The notes under the pieces: generated by a model
Told to the model about the DNA's origin: nothing
The model's database searches: none
The model's input: the letters and a program-made list of their open reading frames with translations, nothing else
Shown: positions 22,174-40,527 of the stretch, piece after piece
Layout of the letters: each line of letters opens with the position of its first letter
How positions within the stretch are numbered: position 1 is the first letter of the stretch
From: Escherichia phage BEK12A
Reading direction: 5' to 3' (one strand)
Length of the DNA: 52,716 nt
Sequence record: MN158210.1
Program-made: the position numbers and the translations under genes

Positions 22174-22192
22174 GTTTAGCAAAAAGTGCTAT
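22174..22192 (-). promoter_or_regulatory. conserved 20-bp box upstream of leftward lipoprotein operon (variant GCTAAAC)
   Basis: minus strand reads ATAGCACTTTTTGCTAAAC, then 18 bp, then TATAGT. Confidence 0.5.
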
Positions 22193-27439: not shown

Positions 27440-28369
27440 TTATAGTAGTGATTCAGGCTTATAGAGTTTTCTTTCTACGCCCTGTTTAAAATTATCGTTA
27501 ACAGGCATCATTATGTCAAGACCTCTTTCCTCTGCTGCGATTATCACATCACGATCATCTTTCCGGCAGACTACGCGCATTCTTCTTTCTCCTTTATATC
27601 TATGCGCAACCATTTCAAGATTTGAAGGAGTAAAGCAGGCCCACACCTCTTGACCAGTTGACAAATGAACATGCTGGGAATCAACCCAATCAAGGCACAA
27701 ATAGATCGTCTTATCTGTGCTACCTGTTTTAACAACAGATCCGCGCGTGTAGTCGCGAGCTAAAAACCAATCCTTTCCATCCTCATCAATGAAAAGCACG
27801 TTACACATTTCATCATCCAGCCCGTCATCATGCACCAGGTGACAAGGTAGCGCGTGAATGTATCGACCATCCTTGACGCCGCAATCATAATAACAATCTT
27901 CCGGCGGATATATCCCCTCATAAACGCTTAAGGGTGTGCGATCGAATTTTAATGTTTTTGCCATCACTTTTTCGCAGCATTCATGACTTGCCTGTTTCCC
28001 GAACGAGTAACCAGAAGAACGCGAAGCGCGCTTGTTTGCTCTGATCCTGTAATCCTGCGGCACTTTTCCGAGGAAGCGGCCCAAAATGTTGATGGCCTCG
28101 CTGTAAGGTTCGCCAGTTAATTTCATTAACCAACCGATCCCCGTGTCGTTACCGCATACGTTGCAGATCGCGCCGCCATCGCCCTCTTCATTTAGCTTAT
28201 CAGTCCATCTAAAACGATCCTTACCGCCGCAGTGTGGGCAAGGCTGATGCTTTTTGTTGAAAACATCGCTATGCAGTCCGCAAATGCTTTGTAGTGCTTC
28301 ACGCCATAACCCCTTCATATATGGCAAAACGTCTTCTTTCTGATAGGTCATAAAGTTTTCAGTATTCAT
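27440..28369 (-). CDS. DNA primase (zinc-ribbon primase domain)
   Basis: CPHCGGKDRFRWTD...CNVCGN zinc-binding motif typical of primase-helicase Zn ribbons; start taken at MNTENF downstream of a hairpin; start uncertain. Confidence 0.6.
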   Translation of the reverse strand: MNTENFMTYQKEDVLPYMKGLWREALQSICGLHSDVFNKKHQPCPHCGGKDRFRWTDKLNEEGDGGAICNVCGNDTGIGWLMKLTGEPYSEAINILGRFLGKVPQDYRIRANKRASRSSGYSFGKQASHECCEKVMAKTLKFDRTPLSVYEGIYPPEDCYYDCGVKDGRYIHALPCHLVHDDGLDDEMCNVLFIDEDGKDWFLARDYTRGSVVKTGSTDKTIYLCLDWVDSQHVHLSTGQEVWACFTPSNLEMVAHRYKGERRMRVVCRKDDRDVIIAAEERGLDIMMPVNDNFKQGVERKLYKPESLL

Positions 28370-28381
28370 GGCAAACCCCAA

Positions 28382-28417
28382 TAAAAAAGCCCAGCAAATA
28401 TTATCATTTCGCTGGGC
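28382..28417 (-). terminator. terminator / attenuator hairpin between HTH gene and primase
   Basis: minus strand GCCCAGC-15 nt loop-GCTGGGC followed by TTTTTTAT. Confidence 0.4.
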
Positions 28418-28424
28418 CTTATCA

Positions 28425-28901
28425 TTAGCTATTCGTGCTGTTATCACCTTTGTAGAATCGTCCGCCTGGTTCGTAGTCTGAATTTTTGACTACGCGCAAC
28501 ATTTCGTATTTGTCGCAACGGGTAGTAAGAGGCTTGCCGTTAGAATCAAACCGCAGATCTGGACGACAAAACGAGGCGCGGTATCCTTTGCATCCATTAT
28601 ATTTGTAGTCGTTATGCACCTTTTGTGCTCCAGCGGCTGAAATCATACCACGCTTTCGCCATTGGTTAACAACTTGCTGAGATACGCGCAGACGTCGAGC
28701 CATAGCAGGAACGCCGCCGTAATACTCGATCAGAATGTCAAGGCGAGATTTCAGGCTTGCTTTTACCTCATCTCGCAGGATAAGAAATCCGGTTCGGTGT
28801 TTTCGTGGCTTTTTGTCTTTACCTCGTCGCGTTCCGTTGTTACCGTTAATAGTGCGCTTGTCGATCTCACCCGTAGACACTGCAATTCGTGCATCTTTCA
28901 T
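28425..28901 (-). CDS. HTH DNA-binding protein (Cro/YdaS-like helix-turn-helix)
   Basis: YGGVPAMARRLRVSQQVVNQWRKRG motif; RBS GAGGTG; first gene of leftward operon. Confidence 0.5.
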   Translation of the reverse strand: MKDARIAVSTGEIDKRTINGNNGTRRGKDKKPRKHRTGFLILRDEVKASLKSRLDILIEYYGGVPAMARRLRVSQQVVNQWRKRGMISAAGAQKVHNDYKYNGCKGYRASFCRPDLRFDSNGKPLTTRCDKYEMLRVVKNSDYEPGGRFYKGDNSTNS

Positions 28902-35462: not shown

Positions 35463-35854
35463 TGAAGAAATTTTTACTTACACCAATCGCAATGGCGGTG
35501 ATCTTGTCTGGATGTTCAAGCGTTACGCCACTGACCGGATTAATCGGCAGTAAGCCGGAAATAACAGCACAGGCTGGCGCGGAGAACGTTAAGCAGACAG
35601 TTGGCATTACATCAAAGCAGGACGCCAGCACAAAACAGGAAACCACAATAAAGGAATCTGCGGTTGACAAGGTGGACACGTCCAGCAAGAAGGATTTCAC
35701 AACATCAACCATTCAGGCCAATACCATCAAGGCAGACAAAATTCAGGTCGTGCAGGGTAATAACGGCAGATGGTACGATCCAATAATCATATGCGTGGTT
35801 GTGTTCATTGTGCTGATTTGTCTTTACTGGAGGGAAAAGAAAAAGGAGGCTTAA
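35459..35854 (+). CDS. unimolecular spanin (lipoprotein with C-terminal transmembrane anchor)
   Basis: N-terminal lipobox AVILSGCSS and C-terminal [18 protein letters not shown] in a single 131-aa protein; last gene of lysis cassette. Confidence 0.65.
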
Positions 35855-35870
35855 TGCCTCCTTTATTTTT
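35844..35870. terminator. terminator between convergent operons
   Basis: AGGAGGCTTAATGCCTCCT plus TTTATTTTT. Confidence 0.55.
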
Positions 35871-36364: not shown

Positions 36365-36686
36365 CGCCCATCTCCCCTATTCTCGCCATATCCCTGATCC
36401 AGTCGTTGCGCATACCATCCAGGCTATACAATTCGAATCCGAAAGGCCGCTTTGATGATCCTTTGGACCAGTATTTTCCGCAGACCCCATCTATATAACC
36501 AGCCGTCATCATTCTTGCGCAAAATTCCTTAGATGCAAGGCTGGCGAACATTCGCGGCGTAAGTCCGGCGGCCCGCGCGAGCCGCTCGCATTCTCTATGC
36601 TGATAGATAAATTTGGCTATGTGCTGCCTGTTAAACCAGTCGTATGACTCACACCATTTATACAGATCAAGCAAAAACATAATCAT
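36291..36686 (-). CDS. hypothetical protein
   Basis: 131 aa, start overlaps stop of ATPase gene. Confidence 0.45.
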   Translation of the reverse strand: MIMFLLDLYKWCESYDWFNRQHIAKFIYQHRECERLARAAGLTPRMFASLASKEFCARMMTAGYIDGVCGKYWSKGSSKRPFGFELYSLDGMRNDWIRDMARIGEMGDDELFQAKANRQDLEALRRKFNIT

Positions 36687-38263
36687 CCCAGCAGTATTGG
36701 ATTGACAAAAATAACACCATTAATCACGCAAACATAATTTCTTTCTTCCAGCATTGGCAGCAAGTGCCCCTCTATCCTCTTCATTACGCCAGCCTGACCA
36801 ACGAAAGGTTTTACCTTTCTCGCTGATTCGTACAGGGCGCGAATATTCAGGATCCCTTTGTTAGCCTTGCCGTGCCTCGTGATCAATTCAATCAATTTAC
36901 CCATTTCAGCATCATCACCAGCATAACCAGAAGCATTGGCGGCGCTAATGTATGTTTTGCTCAATTCATGAAACATGATCAGCGCCTCTTGCATTGTTTC
37001 AACGTCGATCTCTTTCGACTTCTGCGGGTATCCAGCAGGATTAAACCAGTTGCGGATAACATGCAGGACGGAAGCAAGCCTGATCACCTGTTTATCCATT
37101 TTACCCAGCGCACCGCGTAACATTGTATGAGAATACTTTCCGCCGTCTGCAAGATGCGGTTCCATATCCTGGCGAGCAATGTTGAGCACTCGCATAGCTG
37201 AACGGCTTATTTTCAGCGATATATTTGATTCGCTCATGATGTTATGCACCAATTGATAATATTGGGCCTTCAATTCAGGATCCACCGCCTCATAGGTAGA
37301 ATCACCATTTTCATCAATGAATGAGCGACGGCCTAAGAATGATTCCTCACGGACCAACAAAAAGCGCTCACTCACACCGATACCGCGCGATCCAGCGTCC
37401 ATGATTCCGCTTATCGTTTCATCCTGGGCTATAACGCTCATACATCCAAGCGCGCGAAAACTCATGTTATTGTCAGCATTAGCACGGGCGATTGATACGT
37501 GACCATTATCCCACGCCTTAAGCACTAGCTCGCTGTTAGTCTTCCTTTCGCTATTGGCATATGTCAAGCCTAACAGGCTGTTAATACTTGTTGCTTCGTC
37601 AGATATTACGGCAAAGTTACCTTGCTTGTTGTTGATTTTCGCCAAGCCTTCTGGAGTTGTATCTGAAACAGGGAAAGTTATATCACACATTTTTTCCAGC
37701 TTCTCCTCCAGATCCTCTTTTTCCTGGTATAGAGATTCCATATCAGCGCCTGATCTTTCGCTTTTCATCTCCTTTGCAAGACCTGCCAACTTTGCCTGTA
37801 TTTTCTTTCTTTCCTTGCGGCGTTGCTCGTTGATCTTCTCAACTTCCGCAATCATCGGAGCAATAGCCATGCTGTTGATCGCAGATTTACCAGTTGACGG
37901 CGGCTGGCTTGTAACGACGTAAAGCGCAGTCGGCTGATCGGTCCCGTGATAGTCAACCGTAAAGCGTCCAAGCATGGCGGCAGAAATGCAGCCGATAAAG
38001 TGCATGTAAGCCGATGATTCAGGGAATTGAATGGATCGCGCAATACTGCGTGATAACTTTCCGACAACATCAATATCATTACCAAGAGAAATGACGGGGT
38101 AGCGATCGTGACCGCTATTTACATCCTTTACGTCGCCCCAAAAGCTGGACGACTGGCGATAGCCGTTAGCCTGAATTGATACGCGAACTGGTGAAAGGTT
38201 CTGGCTTTCAGCCATAGCGATTATTTGCTGTGGAGTTAATTTGTTCGTTTCTAATGAAAACAT
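36683..38263 (-). CDS. P-loop NTPase of unknown function
   Basis: Walker A-like QPPSTGKS and Walker B-like AVISDEAT separated by a charged coiled-coil segment; RBS AAAGGAG. Confidence 0.5.
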   Translation of the reverse strand: MFSLETNKLTPQQIIAMAESQNLSPVRVSIQANGYRQSSSFWGDVKDVNSGHDRYPVISLGNDIDVVGKLSRSIARSIQFPESSAYMHFIGCISAAMLGRFTVDYHGTDQPTALYVVTSQPPSTGKSAINSMAIAPMIAEVEKINEQRRKERKKIQAKLAGLAKEMKSERSGADMESLYQEKEDLEEKLEKMCDITFPVSDTTPEGLAKINNKQGNFAVISDEATSINSLLGLTYANSERKTNSELVLKAWDNGHVSIARANADNNMSFRALGCMSVIAQDETISGIMDAGSRGIGVSERFLLVREESFLGRRSFIDENGDSTYEAVDPELKAQYYQLVHNIMSESNISLKISRSAMRVLNIARQDMEPHLADGGKYSHTMLRGALGKMDKQVIRLASVLHVIRNWFNPAGYPQKSKEIDVETMQEALIMFHELSKTYISAANASGYAGDDAEMGKLIELITRHGKANKGILNIRALYESARKVKPFVGQAGVMKRIEGHLLPMLEERNYVCVINGVIFVNPILLG

Positions 38264-38294
38264 TCGTTAGCTTCTCCTTTGTGGGCCGTAAATT

Positions 38295-38335
38295 TTAACG
38301 GCCCAATACTACCCCGTTTTGTCAAAAAGTGCTAT
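38295..38335 (-). promoter_or_regulatory. conserved box (variant TTGACAAAAC) - hairpin module (leftward)
   Basis: minus strand ATAGCACTTTTTGACAAAAC, then 18 bp, then TAAAAT inside hairpin GGGCCGTTAAAATTTACGGCCC. Confidence 0.55.
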
Positions 38336-38553
38336 TTGATCCGCTCTATTGCAACCAGAAGTCGATCAGGCTGGCGGTCGCTGTAGCATTCTCCTGTAAT
38401 CCCATCCTTAAACGTAAAGTAAAGCGCCTTATGATATGAAAAACCAATCAGCCAACCTACCGACGTTTTTTTGATGGGCCTGACTATATCGCCAGGCTTG
38501 AAGGTTTTTGTTGCTGAATTAGTAACCTTATAGCGATATTCAGTCTTGATCAT
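38332..38553 (-). CDS. hypothetical protein
   Basis: ATG at codon 40 of the 38670 ORF, overlapping HNH stop; about 73 aa; stop TAG in box. Confidence 0.4.
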   Translation of the reverse strand: MIKTEYRYKVTNSATKTFKPGDIVRPIKKTSVGWLIGFSYHKALYFTFKDGITGECYSDRQPDRLLVAIERIK

Positions 38554-39061
38554 AAGGCTTCTCGCTTCCGTGGTTTTCGTGGAATCCGTACTTTTTCCAA
38601 ATAGCATCTCTTGATGATACAGCGCTATCAATTGATGCATGATAACCACCAGAAATACACCTGCCATCAACAGTTACTTGTACGCACCATTTAGACACCC
38701 TCTTATTCCACATCACGCCAGTATAACCAGATTTATTTGTCGATCTCCTTGTGTGGTTTTGTGAGTTTTGTTTTCTTGTGACAAGCCGGAGGTTTTCGAT
38801 TCTATTGTCATCTCTTATGTGATTCACGTGATCTATCTCCATTCCTTTTGGTATTGTTTTTCCATGCATCCACCAAACAATCCAATGCGCCGGATACTCT
38901 CTGCCACCAATACCTATACGTCTATATCCGTTTTTAGTTATATAACCTGCCTCATCGCCAATTTTTGCCCGTCTTCCTGATGGGCTTTTCCATAATAGAC
39001 GACCATTTTCATATATAAATAAATTTAGAAGTACTTGCCTTGAAATTCCGCTATTGCACAT
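38540..39061 (-). CDS. HNH homing endonuclease
   Basis: HWIVWWMHG...EIDHVNHIRDDNRIENLRLVTRKQNSQN. Confidence 0.8.
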   Translation of the reverse strand: MCNSGISRQVLLNLFIYENGRLLWKSPSGRRAKIGDEAGYITKNGYRRIGIGGREYPAHWIVWWMHGKTIPKGMEIDHVNHIRDDNRIENLRLVTRKQNSQNHTRRSTNKSGYTGVMWNKRVSKWCVQVTVDGRCISGGYHASIDSAVSSRDAIWKKYGFHENHGSEKPYDQD

Positions 39062-39283: not shown

Positions 39284-39327
39284 ATTATGCCAGGTTTTTA
39301 CACCTGGCTTTTAACAAAAAGTGCTAT
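39284..39327 (-). promoter_or_regulatory. conserved box - hairpin - CATAAT module (leftward)
   Basis: minus strand ATAGCACTTTTTGTTAAAAG, CCAGGTGTAAAAACCTGG, CATAAT, CACCGAAACGAA. Confidence 0.6.
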
Positions 39328-40010
39328 TTTGAGTTTGACTCAAAGACGGCGCGAGCAAATCCGCGCGGAGTGAGGGAGCGTAGTTGCTTTGTTCTGGCAG
39401 ACTTACCGCCTAAAAACTTCCAACCCCAAAAGAACATTACGCCCTCATCATTGGATAACGGCTTGCGTTCCGGTTCTGTAAATCCGTTGCCGCACCAGAT
39501 AGCAGTCCTTTTTGTGTAGCCATCCTTTAGCGGCATCTTGGGGTGAAAAGATCCATCGGATTCGTCCAGGTAGTTACCAAAATCGCGAGGATTGAAATAA
39601 AAATCAGGCTTGCGCCATAGCGTTGATAGTCGGCCTACAGGATTCTCAGCCATCCAGGGAACACCGAAATGATTCCCGACAGTTTCAACCATGATTGCAT
39701 TTTTGAGCGCAACCTGAATATCATCATCGCTTCGCACGTGCTTGATTCCTGATTGGGCAAACATGGTGCAGTCTGGAAATCCAAATACAATATCTGGTTT
39801 TGGAATACCAATCTTACTGATTCTTTCAATGAAATTTTCATCAATCCACATATTCACATAATGCAGATTTTCATGTTTCATCTTGATGAAATATTCGCCG
39901 TGATTGCCTTCATCAGCGTTAAAGCAATAGCATTGATAGCCAGCCTTCGCATATTCAAGCAGCATGATTCCAGATCCATCAAACATTGAGTAAGCAACTT
40001 TATTTCCCAT
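39324..40010 (-). CDS. putative DNA methyltransferase-like protein (divergent C5-cytosine MTase-like motifs)
   Basis: FDGSG (motif I-like), GFPDCTMFAQSG (PC-motif-like with an insertion), ENPVG (ENV-like); divergent, so assignment is tentative. Confidence 0.35.
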   Translation of the reverse strand: MGNKVAYSMFDGSGIMLLEYAKAGYQCYCFNADEGNHGEYFIKMKHENLHYVNMWIDENFIERISKIGIPKPDIVFGFPDCTMFAQSGIKHVRSDDDIQVALKNAIMVETVGNHFGVPWMAENPVGRLSTLWRKPDFYFNPRDFGNYLDESDGSFHPKMPLKDGYTKRTAIWCGNGFTEPERKPLSNDEGVMFFWGWKFLGGKSARTKQLRSLTPRGFARAVFESNSK

Positions 40011-40527
40011 GATTTTTATGATACCCCAATTCATTCTCGGCTTTACGTTTTGCGGCAACAGCATCTCCAAAACTGGAAAAACAACCTATATAAATCCTAC
40101 TTCCTCTCCTTCCGCCTCCAACCCTTACAACCCATTTGCCATGTTTATTTTTATGCACACCTGGTATGCCACTTGTATTGTTTTTCTGCTTTGATGTGTT
40201 TCGCATATTTCCTTTGTGATCTTTTAACTCAAAGTTTATTGCTCTGTTATCAGTCGTAATGTGATTTACGTGATCAACCTCCTTTCCTTCCGGTATAGGC
40301 CCATAGTGCATTTCATAGCATATTCTATGAACTTTCAGGTTATAACGTTTTCCGTTTACAGTAAGTGCAGTTTCTAAATATCTGCCACCACTACCCAAAG
40401 AGCCAACCTCATTACCAGCATTGCAAGCATTCCATTGTTTAACTCTTGATGGGTGAATATCTTTTCTTTCTTTCCAGAACAGCTTTCCAGTTTCTGGATT
40501 GTATGTAAAGTAATCGTGCCAATTCAT
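40000..40527 (-). CDS. HNH homing endonuclease (HNH plus AP2-like)
   Basis: HRICYEMHYGPIPEGKEVDHVNHITTDNRAIN; C-terminal AP2-like segment similar to 528..1019. Confidence 0.8.
   Translation of the reverse strand: MNWHDYFTYNPETGKLFWKERKDIHPSRVKQWNACNAGNEVGSLGSGGRYLETALTVNGKRYNLKVHRICYEMHYGPIPEGKEVDHVNHITTDNRAINFELKDHKGNMRNTSKQKNNTSGIPGVHKNKHGKWVVRVGGGRRGSRIYIGCFSSFGDAVAAKRKAENELGYHKNHGK

What the first reader, a model, noticed from the sequence alone, without database searches (positions are those of the whole stretch)
36683..38263. Orphan P-loop ATPase with coiled-coil insertion in the leftward early operon
The 526-aa protein has Walker A-like (QPPSTGKS) and Walker B-like (VISDEAT) motifs separated by a highly charged coiled-coil segment, and no further motifs I can assign. 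It is the largest gene of the early operon and sits beside HNH endonucleases and a methyltransferase-like gene. The function is unassigned (possibilities include a replication loader or a host-takeover ATPase).
Basis: partly seen in the sequence, partly recalled or inferred. Interest (0 to 1): 0.5.

Follow-up and report, generated by a model that had tools for sequence, protein, structure and literature searches.

The report
MCM-like DUF3987 helicase of T1-like phage
The gene is not an orphan: it is the T1-like phage copy (T1 gp9 orthologue) of the widespread DUF3987 family of MCM-fold AAA+ DNA helicases, most likely the phage's own replicative helicase, so it is ordinary, already annotated replication machinery.

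The parts
36683..38263 (-). Complete gene for the 526-aa DUF3987-family AAA+ helicase (orthologue of T1 ST9/gp9); the stop codon is 36683-36685
   Evidence: ORF list. 100% identical to BEK26 MN158216.1. Pfam PF13148 E 8e-44. phrog_2373 E 1.5e-243. 58% identity to T1 ST9.
37973..38263 (-). N-terminal helical region (residues 1-97): a small three-helix unit (11-41), a linker, and helices 66-97 leading into the ATPase core. There is no MCM-type OB/zinc domain.
   Evidence: DSSP of model m83a141ee17e6. W42 is invariant in alignment A1. Function not determined.
37883..37906 (-). Walker A / P-loop, QPPSTGKS (residues 120-127)
   Evidence: Translation check. K126 is 108/108, Q120 104/108 and S/T127 108/108. 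It follows strand 115-119 in the model.
37691..37888 (-). Charged helical hairpin (residues 126-191): the Walker A helix is extended to residue 168 and returns as helix 172-191
   Evidence: Model secondary structure; pLDDT 81-96 in this stretch. 41% charged residues. Family-wide length conservation: Walker A-to-B distance median 98, range 68-106.
37649..37657 (-). Conserved T-P-E motif (residues 203-205) at the start of helix 204-214
   Evidence: T203 is 107/108 and E205 is 106/108. Role not determined.
37595..37615 (-). Walker B strand and acidic residues, FAVISDE (residues 217-223)
   Evidence: Strand 217-221 in the model. E223 is 108/108 and S221 is 101/108. D222 is only 49/108, with A 38 and S 16. 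The equivalent Glu of AgaPH (E297Q) is needed for unwinding.
37454..37501 (-). Pre-sensor-1 beta-hairpin (residues 255-270) with invariant R260
   Evidence: Strands 255-258 and 267-270 lie between the Walker B and sensor-1 strands. R260 is 108/108.
37424..37447 (-). Sensor-1 strand ending in Q280 (residues 273-280)
   Evidence: Strand 273-279. Q280 is 107/108 and A279 is 99/108.
37361..37378 (-). Putative arginine finger, GVSERF (residues 296-301)
   Evidence: G296 and R300 are 108/108 and E299 is 100/108. The motif sits just before strand 301-305. It resembles the MCM 'SRF' arginine-finger motif (my own knowledge).
36929..37279 (-). Helical lid region (residues 329-445) with invariant K388 and near-invariant G384 and H401
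   Evidence: Helices 329-343, 354-371, 380-405 and 421-445. Conservation.
36686..36916 (-). C-terminal winged-helix domain (residues 450-526)
38290..38336 (-). Copy of the genome-wide conserved intergenic element (AATAGCACTTTTTGACAAAA ... TAAAAT) immediately upstream of the gene; a candidate promoter or enhancer
   Evidence: The 12-mer occurs 14 times against 0.65 expected. The same 21-nt repeat is described in phage TLS (PMC11447400).
36291..36686 (-). Downstream 131-aa gene whose ATG overlaps the helicase stop codon (ATGA). It has a winged-helix N-terminal half and a disordered tail, and is a possible partner.
27440..28447 (-). Phage primase, the presumed working partner, about 8.2 kb away
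   Evidence: Pfam Zn_Ribbon_Prim E 4.8e-15. phrog_510 'DNA primase' E 6e-109, matching only positions 6-316 of a 667-position profile.

Best explanation
The gene encodes a DUF3987-family AAA+ ATPase with an MCM-like fold that most likely forms a ring-shaped (hexameric) DNA helicase and serves as the replicative helicase of this T1-like phage. ATP would bind at the Walker A lysine K126 and be hydrolysed with the Walker B glutamate E223. Sensor-1 Q280 and an arginine finger (R300) supplied by the neighbouring subunit would assist. The cycle would move the pre-sensor-1 beta-hairpin (invariant R260) along single-stranded DNA in the central channel. By analogy with the one characterised family member (AgaPH), and given the fusions of relatives to DnaG and DnaB-N modules, it probably tracks 5'-3' on the lagging-strand template. 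There it would cooperate with the phage's separate zinc-ribbon primase, while the host polymerase copies the DNA, since no polymerase gene was found among the ORFs scanned. The C-terminal winged helix, and possibly the translationally coupled winged-helix protein downstream, may provide DNA or partner recognition. Shown here: family membership, fold, motif conservation and genomic linkage. Inferred: oligomeric state, polarity, the primase interaction and the replicative role.
For: Family: Pfam DUF3987 at 150.7 bits; phrog_2373 'DNA helicase'; 2572 relatives at E<=1e-3.
Catalytic set: K126, E223, R260, G296, R300 and K388 are invariant, and Q280 is 107/108.
Fusions in distant relatives: DnaG zinc ribbon, DnaB N-terminal domain, PriCT-2 and Prim-Pol.
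Linkage: in 79 distant viral contigs a primase homologue lies within 3 kb in 55 (median gap about 300 bp) and an SF2 helicase within 3 kb in 60. Explicit modules run DUF3987, DnaG-type primase, SF2 helicase, RecE-like exonuclease and DUF3987, SF2 helicase, exonuclease, AAA_24, SSB.
BEK26 gene content: the same partner set is present (primase, SF2 helicase + VRR-NUC, RecE-like exonuclease, Erf, SSB). No DnaB-type helicase, helicase loader or DNA polymerase turned up among the 41 ORFs scanned.
Literature: DUF3987 is described as SF6, MCM-related, with a C-terminal wHTH and primase association, and N4 dns is essential for replication (PMC4889955). PriCT-DUF3987 AgaPH unwinds 5'-3', binds its primase-polymerase, and is killed by Walker A K213A and Walker B E297Q (PMC11724360). 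The T1-like phage AAS23 gp49 is already called a putative DUF3987 helicase.
Against: There is no experiment on any T1-like member. In BEK26 and other T1-like phages the gene is not next to the primase: it lies about 8 kb away, on the far side of the lysis cassette. The phage also carries an SF2 helicase beside the primase, which some authors treat as 'the' helicase. The Walker B aspartate is poorly conserved in the family (D in 49/108), which is unusual for an AAA+ motor. No helix-2 insert, a hallmark of the MCM clade, is visible in the model's secondary structure. The contigs counted are not independent lineages. From my own memory, unverified here: older T1 genetics reported dependence on host elongation genes, which could include dnaB.
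Confidence: 0.7

Rival explanations
1. Initiator-helicase: the protein both recognises the phage origin, through its C-terminal winged helix or together with the coupled winged-helix protein, and loads itself, like SaPI Rep, SCCmec Cch or P4 alpha. It would then be more than a fork helicase. This extends the best explanation rather than excluding it.
Against: No iteron-like repeats were found in or next to the gene, and the TLS authors found none in their genome. MCM winged-helix domains are not origin readers in general. The wHTH partner is confined to T1-like phages, so it cannot be a family-wide requirement.
Confidence: 0.25
2. Accessory translocase: the SF2 helicase next to the primase, or host DnaB, is the fork helicase. 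The DUF3987 protein would instead act in recombination-dependent replication, fork restart or concatemer processing.
Against: Fusions are to primase, DnaB-N and PriCT modules rather than to recombination domains. An SF2 helicase paired with VRR-NUC is the more typical branch-processing pair (my own knowledge). Kazlauskas et al. assign DUF3987 as replicative.
Confidence: 0.12
3. Helicase loader or host-takeover ATPase: an AAA+ protein that loads or sequesters host DnaB, or remodels host complexes, and does not unwind DNA itself.
Confidence: 0.04

Closest known systems
DUF3987 (Pfam PF13148) helicases, e.g. AgaPH (PriCT-DUF3987) of Seonamhaeicola sp. S2-3, phage N4 dns, and T1 gp9 / AAS23 gp49
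   Same: It shares the same Pfam family and the same Walker A Lys and Walker B Glu that AgaPH needs for unwinding. The Walker A-to-B spacing is long in both (84 residues in AgaPH, 97 here). It has the C-terminal winged helix and is linked to primases. It is orthologous (58% identity, same synteny) to T1 gp9.
   Different: It is stand-alone, with no PriCT, AEP or DnaG domain fused, and in T1-like phages it is not adjacent to the primase. It pairs with a zinc-ribbon primase rather than an AEP primase-polymerase. It is followed by a lineage-specific winged-helix protein. Activity and polarity are untested for this lineage.
MCM helicases (SF6; archaeal MCM, eukaryotic MCM2-7, MCM8/9)
   Different: There is no detectable sequence match (no Pfam MCM hit at E<=1; no PDB hit even with a 108-sequence profile). 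It lacks the N-terminal OB/zinc tier. No helix-2 insert is visible. It has an extra ~65-residue helical hairpin after the P-loop and an S-x-E Walker B. The characterised DUF3987 member runs 5'-3', whereas MCM runs 3'-5' (my own knowledge).
MCM-like helicases of mobile elements: SCCmec Cch and SaPI5 Rep (DUF927)
   Different: Structural similarity is lower than to MCM proper, and they belong to different Pfam families. Those proteins are shown to be self-loading initiator-helicases, which is not shown here.
T7 gp4 / P4 alpha primase-helicases
   Same: The functional logic is the same: a zinc-ribbon primase working with a hexameric helicase. Some DUF3987 relatives are true DnaG-zinc-ribbon fusions. 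The BEK26 primase matches only the N-terminal half of the 667-position PHROG 510 profile.
   Different: The motor is AAA+ with an MCM-like fold, not RecA-type SF4 (T7) or SF3 (P4). Here primase and helicase are separate genes about 8 kb apart.

Membership tests
DUF3987 (PF13148) | Score above the Pfam gathering threshold over most of the model | tested here: met
   150.7 bits against a cut-off of 27; residues 81-428 cover model positions 3-348 of 364.
DUF3987 (PF13148) | Walker A lysine and Walker B glutamate, the residues whose mutation abolishes AgaPH helicase activity | tested here: met
   K126 and E223 are invariant in 108 relatives. AgaPH K213A and E297Q are inactive.
DUF3987 (PF13148) | [quoted passage not shown] | tested here: met
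   [not shown]
DUF3987 (PF13148) | Fusion to, or adjacency with, an AEP or DnaG primase | tested here: inconclusive
   Met in relatives: fusions and a primase within 3 kb in 55/79 distant contigs. In this window the primase is about 8.2 kb away and not in the same operon.
DUF3987 (PF13148) | ATP-dependent DNA unwinding | not testable with these tools
   Shown only for AgaPH.
MCM family (PF00493) / SF6 helicases | Sequence-level match to MCM | tested here: not met
   No MCM hit in Pfam at E<=1. No MCM chain was found by phmmer or by the 108-sequence profile against PDB. The link rests on fold, plus the published HHsearch result for another DUF3987 protein.
MCM family (PF00493) / SF6 helicases | AAA+ core most similar to MCM | tested here: met
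   [not shown]
MCM family (PF00493) / SF6 helicases | Pre-sensor-1 beta-hairpin | tested here: met
   Strands 255-258 and 267-270 lie between the Walker B and sensor-1 strands, with invariant R260. This is read from the secondary structure of a predicted model only.
MCM family (PF00493) / SF6 helicases | Helix-2 insert beta-hairpin | tested here: not met
   Helix 204-214 between strand 2 and the Walker B strand is short and uninterrupted in the model. Model coordinates could not be inspected, so this is provisional.
MCM family (PF00493) / SF6 helicases | N-terminal OB-fold / zinc-binding tier | tested here: not met
   [not shown]
MCM family (PF00493) / SF6 helicases | 3'-5' translocation polarity | not testable with these tools
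   The only measured DUF3987 member is 5'-3'.
DnaC/DnaA/Cdc6-type initiators and helicase loaders | Initiator-clade AAA+ core without a pre-sensor-1 hairpin, and a family profile match | tested here: not met
   [not shown]
Anti-phage defence ATPases (PADLOC models) | Match to any defence-system profile | tested here: not met
   No family at E<=0.01.

The most novel reading that the evidence does not exclude
T1-like phages may run a hybrid replisome. In it an MCM-fold AAA+ ring would travel 5'-3' on the lagging strand like DnaB, coupled to a bacterial-type zinc-ribbon primase and host Pol III. The ring would lack the MCM N-terminal tier and helix-2 insert. It would carry a family-specific ~65-residue charged helical hairpin growing out of the Walker A helix, and an S-x-E Walker B. 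The six hairpins would form a collar that replaces the missing N-terminal tier or docks the primase. The translationally coupled winged-helix protein would act as the origin or loading factor. No DUF3987 structure has been solved, so this would be a new architectural solution for a replicative helicase in one of the classical T phages.
Probability: 0.3. Interest if true: 0.5.

Novelty: already known. Interest (0 to 1): 0.2.

Why it matters
This corrects an "orphan" label. The gene is a core replication gene of T1-like phages (Drexlerviridae) and should be annotated as a DUF3987 / MCM-like helicase; the BEK26 record itself still calls it hypothetical. Beyond annotation the value is modest. Neither the T1-like protein nor any DUF3987 member has a solved structure. 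The family shows unusual features: a helical hairpin after the P-loop, a non-conserved Walker B aspartate, and 5'-3' polarity in an MCM-like fold. T1-like phages would be an easy genetic system to study how such a motor works with a bacterial-type primase and the host polymerase.

Tried and rejected
(1) Sequence searches of the PDB found only coiled-coil noise, both with the single protein and with a 108-sequence profile. No relative with a solved structure is detectable by sequence.
(2) NCBIfam and PADLOC gave nothing useful.
(3) I looked for iterons or an origin near the gene. Only short two- or three-copy repeats turned up in the divergent intergenic region 43.6-44.5 kb, plus the known 21-nt promoter-like repeat. 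Nothing convincing.
(4) I tested whether the small ORFs immediately upstream of DUF3987 genes in different lineages are homologous. No detectable similarity, so there is no conserved two-gene cassette upstream.
(5) The downstream small ORFs of BEK26 and Bas79 were compared. They are unrelated.
(6) A literature search for classical T1 host-gene dependence and gene 1/2 assignments failed. The relevant older papers and the 2004 T1 genome paper are not held, so the link between T1 'gene 1' and gp9 remains my unverified conjecture.
(7) The supplementary tables of Kazlauskas 2016 are not held.
(8) The search for related loci with the very diverse alignment A2 failed for lack of a conserved stretch. 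It was replaced by A1 and A5.
(9) The sigma-70 promoter scan showed no enrichment over shuffles (18 found against 20.7 expected).

Full report
**Identity of the window and the ORF.**
- The 1581-nt region is 100% identical to Escherichia phage BEK26 (MN158216.1, 52,716 bp). It is 98-99% identical to Warwickvirus phages of the Drexlerviridae (T1-like), such as tiwna, tonnikala and FritzSarasin.
- The ORF list confirms a 526-aa ATG-initiated ORF at 36683-38263 on the minus strand.
- An AAGGAG ribosome-binding site lies upstream, and the predicted mass is 58.2 kDa.
- The intervening segment is 41% charged.

**Not an orphan.**
- Pfam gives DUF3987 (PF13148) at E 8e-44 and 150.7 bits against a cut-off of 27. 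The match is continuous over residues 81-428.
- PHROGs gives phrog_2373, labelled 'DNA helicase', at E 1.5e-243 over the whole length.
- An exhaustive HMMER search of 1.84 billion cluster representatives finds 2572 relatives at E<=1e-3 and 160 at E<=1e-30.
- tblastn finds the protein in 925 phage records, mostly Klebsiella, Escherichia, Salmonella and Shigella siphophages. Many annotate it as 'DNA helicase' or 'putative helicase'.
- The orthologue in phage T1 itself is ST9 (gp9, 522 aa, 58% identity). It occupies the same position, directly after the lysis cassette at the end of the leftward operon.
- A 2021 paper on the T1-like Pantoea phage AAS23 already describes its gp49 as a putative helicase with a DUF3987 domain (PMC8004638).

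**Fold.**
- With a 29-sequence alignment, AlphaFold2 gives a confident model: mean pLDDT 88.3, pTM 0.86.
- Next come the related AAA+ proteins RavA (10.7), BchI (10.0), the SCCmec helicase Cch (9.8), ComM (8.3) and SaPI5 Rep (7.9).
- Foldseek agrees: the 33 best PDB hits are all MCM subunits, with a best E of 1.8e-5.
- Sequence alone finds no solved relative, even with a 108-sequence profile. So no DUF3987 structure appears to be in the PDB copy searched.

**Anatomy** (model secondary structure; conservation in 108 relatives).
- Residues 1-97 are a helical N-terminal region.
- Strand 115-119 leads into the P-loop (K126 108/108).
- The Walker A helix is extended to residue 168 and returns as helix 172-191.
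- A conserved T203-P-E205 motif follows, then helix 204-214.
- Strand 217-221 carries S221-D222-E223. E223 is 108/108. D222 is only 49/108, with A in 38 and S in 16.
- A beta-hairpin at 255-258 / 267-270 carries invariant R260. By its position this is a pre-sensor-1 hairpin.
- Strand 273-279 ends in Q280 (107/108), the sensor-1 position.
- G296-V-S-E299-R300-F lies before strand 301-305. G296 and R300 are invariant. The motif resembles the MCM 'SRF' arginine finger (my own knowledge).
- A helical lid follows, with invariant K388.
- The hairpin is not peculiar to this protein. The Walker A-to-Walker B distance is 68-106 residues (median 98) across the family. AgaPH has 84 residues between its K213 and E297.
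- Compared with MCM the protein lacks the N-terminal OB/zinc tier. As far as secondary structure shows, it also lacks the helix-2 insert.

**What the family does.**
- Kazlauskas et al. (PMC4889955) classified phage DUF3987 proteins as divergent SF6 (MCM-related) helicases.
- They cite an HHsearch probability of 98% for phage Corndog, a C-terminal wHTH, and frequent fusion or adjacency to AEP or DnaG primases. They also note that N4 dns is essential for replication, and they predicted that the family acts as replicative helicases.
- In 2025 a PriCT-DUF3987 protein, AgaPH, was purified. [quoted passage not shown]
- AgaPH also binds its primase-polymerase and is inactivated by K213A and E297Q (PMC11724360).

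**Independent tests here.**
- Longer relatives of the BEK26 protein carry a DnaG CHC2 zinc ribbon, a DnaB N-terminal domain, PriCT-2 or Prim-Pol in front of DUF3987.
- In two distant relatives (36-37% identity) the gene heads a co-directional replication/recombination module. One runs DUF3987, DnaG-type primase, SF2 helicase, RecE-like exonuclease.
- The other runs DUF3987, SF2 helicase, RecE-like exonuclease, AAA_24 (no function test here), SSB. In coliphage Bas79 a primase lies about 0.8 kb away.
- In 79 distant viral contigs, a primase homologue lies within 3 kb in 55 (median gap about 300 bp) and an SF2 helicase within 3 kb in 60.
- In 80 T1-like contigs the primase is about 8.4 kb away and the SF2 helicase about 5.7 kb away. 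These contigs are not independent lineages, so the counts describe prevalence, not the number of events.
- BEK26 carries the same partner set: a zinc-ribbon primase (27440-28447), an SF2 helicase plus VRR-NUC nuclease, Dam, a RecE-like exonuclease, Erf and SSB.
- No DNA polymerase, DnaB-type helicase or loader turned up among the 41 ORFs I scanned.
- The primase matches only the N-terminal half of the 667-position PHROG 510 profile. This would fit a primase-only version of a longer primase protein, though I did not check what the rest of that profile encodes.

**Most likely mechanism.** The protein forms a ring helicase that hydrolyses ATP at subunit interfaces, with K126, E223 and Q280 acting in cis and R300 in trans. 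It pulls single-stranded DNA through the pore with the R260 hairpin. It opens the fork for the phage primase and host polymerase, probably tracking 5'-3' on the lagging strand. Family membership and fold are shown. Oligomer, polarity, partner contacts and the replicative role are inferred.

**Rivals.**
- It may also act as the origin-recognising, self-loading initiator. This is compatible with the best reading, but no iterons were found.
- It may be an accessory translocase for recombination-dependent replication, while the SF2 helicase or host DnaB runs the fork.
- It may be a loader or host-takeover ATPase. This is poorly supported: the Cdc6/ORC matches are partial, and there are no loader or defence profile hits.

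**Verdict.** The gene is an already recognised member of a described helicase family, so novelty is 'already known' and interest is low. Some things remain open: no T1-like member has been tested, no DUF3987 structure exists, and the family's departures from MCM are unexplained. Those departures are the P-loop helical hairpin, the S-x-E Walker B, the missing N-terminal tier and the reported 5'-3' polarity.

Noticed in passing
window 12-mer starts at 22182, 27350, 31401, 32912, 36163, 38325, 39317, 41799, 42305, 43609, 44945, 45939, 47796, 50589: The conserved intergenic element AATAGCACTTTTTGTTAAAA, read in the direction of local transcription, occurs 14 times against 0.65 expected. Each copy is followed at a fixed offset by a (C/T)ATAAT-like hexamer, often with a variable hairpin in between. 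The TTGTTA-to-hexamer spacing is 22 nt, too long for a canonical sigma-70 promoter. The same 21-nt repeat is described in phage TLS with its function unresolved (PMC11447400).
   Followed up: partly
[not shown]
   Followed up: partly
window residues 221-223 of the protein (nt 37595-37603): The Walker B aspartate is not conserved in the DUF3987 family: D in 49, A in 38 and S in 16 of 108 sequences. The preceding Ser (101/108) and the Glu (108/108) are conserved. This 'S-x-E' Walker B is unusual for an AAA+ motor.
   Followed up: partly
window 38540-39061 (-) and 40000-40527 (-): The two HNH_3 endonuclease genes are absent from the syntenic region of the 98%-identical phage FritzSarasin, so they are recent insertions of the kind homing endonucleases make. 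T1 has a different HNH gene (ST8) abutting its helicase gene ST9.
   Followed up: partly
window 35842-35864: A perfect 9-bp-stem hairpin with T-runs on both strands lies between the spanin gene and the end of the leftward operon. It looks like a bidirectional terminator.
   Followed up: no
phage records MG065636.1 and about 20 others: About 21 records named 'Campylobacter phage' (host C. jejuni) encode this protein at about 88% identity to the coliphage version. That suggests T1-like coliphage contaminants or mislabelled records.
   Followed up: no
Klebsiella phage KL NC_049838.1 6230-6508 (hit H70): Only the C-terminal winged-helix part (residues 430-522, 43% identity) of the protein matches, in a stretch with no annotated gene. 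This may be a stand-alone or remnant copy of the domain.
   Followed up: no
window 39324-40070 (-): The 'methyltransferase-like' 248-aa ORF has no Pfam hit at E<=0.01, but it matches PHROG 757 'DNA methyltransferase' (E 3.8e-78). Its relatives are annotated as Dcm-like C5 methyltransferases.
   Followed up: partly
window 27440-28447 (-): The phage primase matches only positions 6-316 of the 667-position PHROG 510 profile. It looks like the primase-only half of a longer protein family.
   Followed up: no
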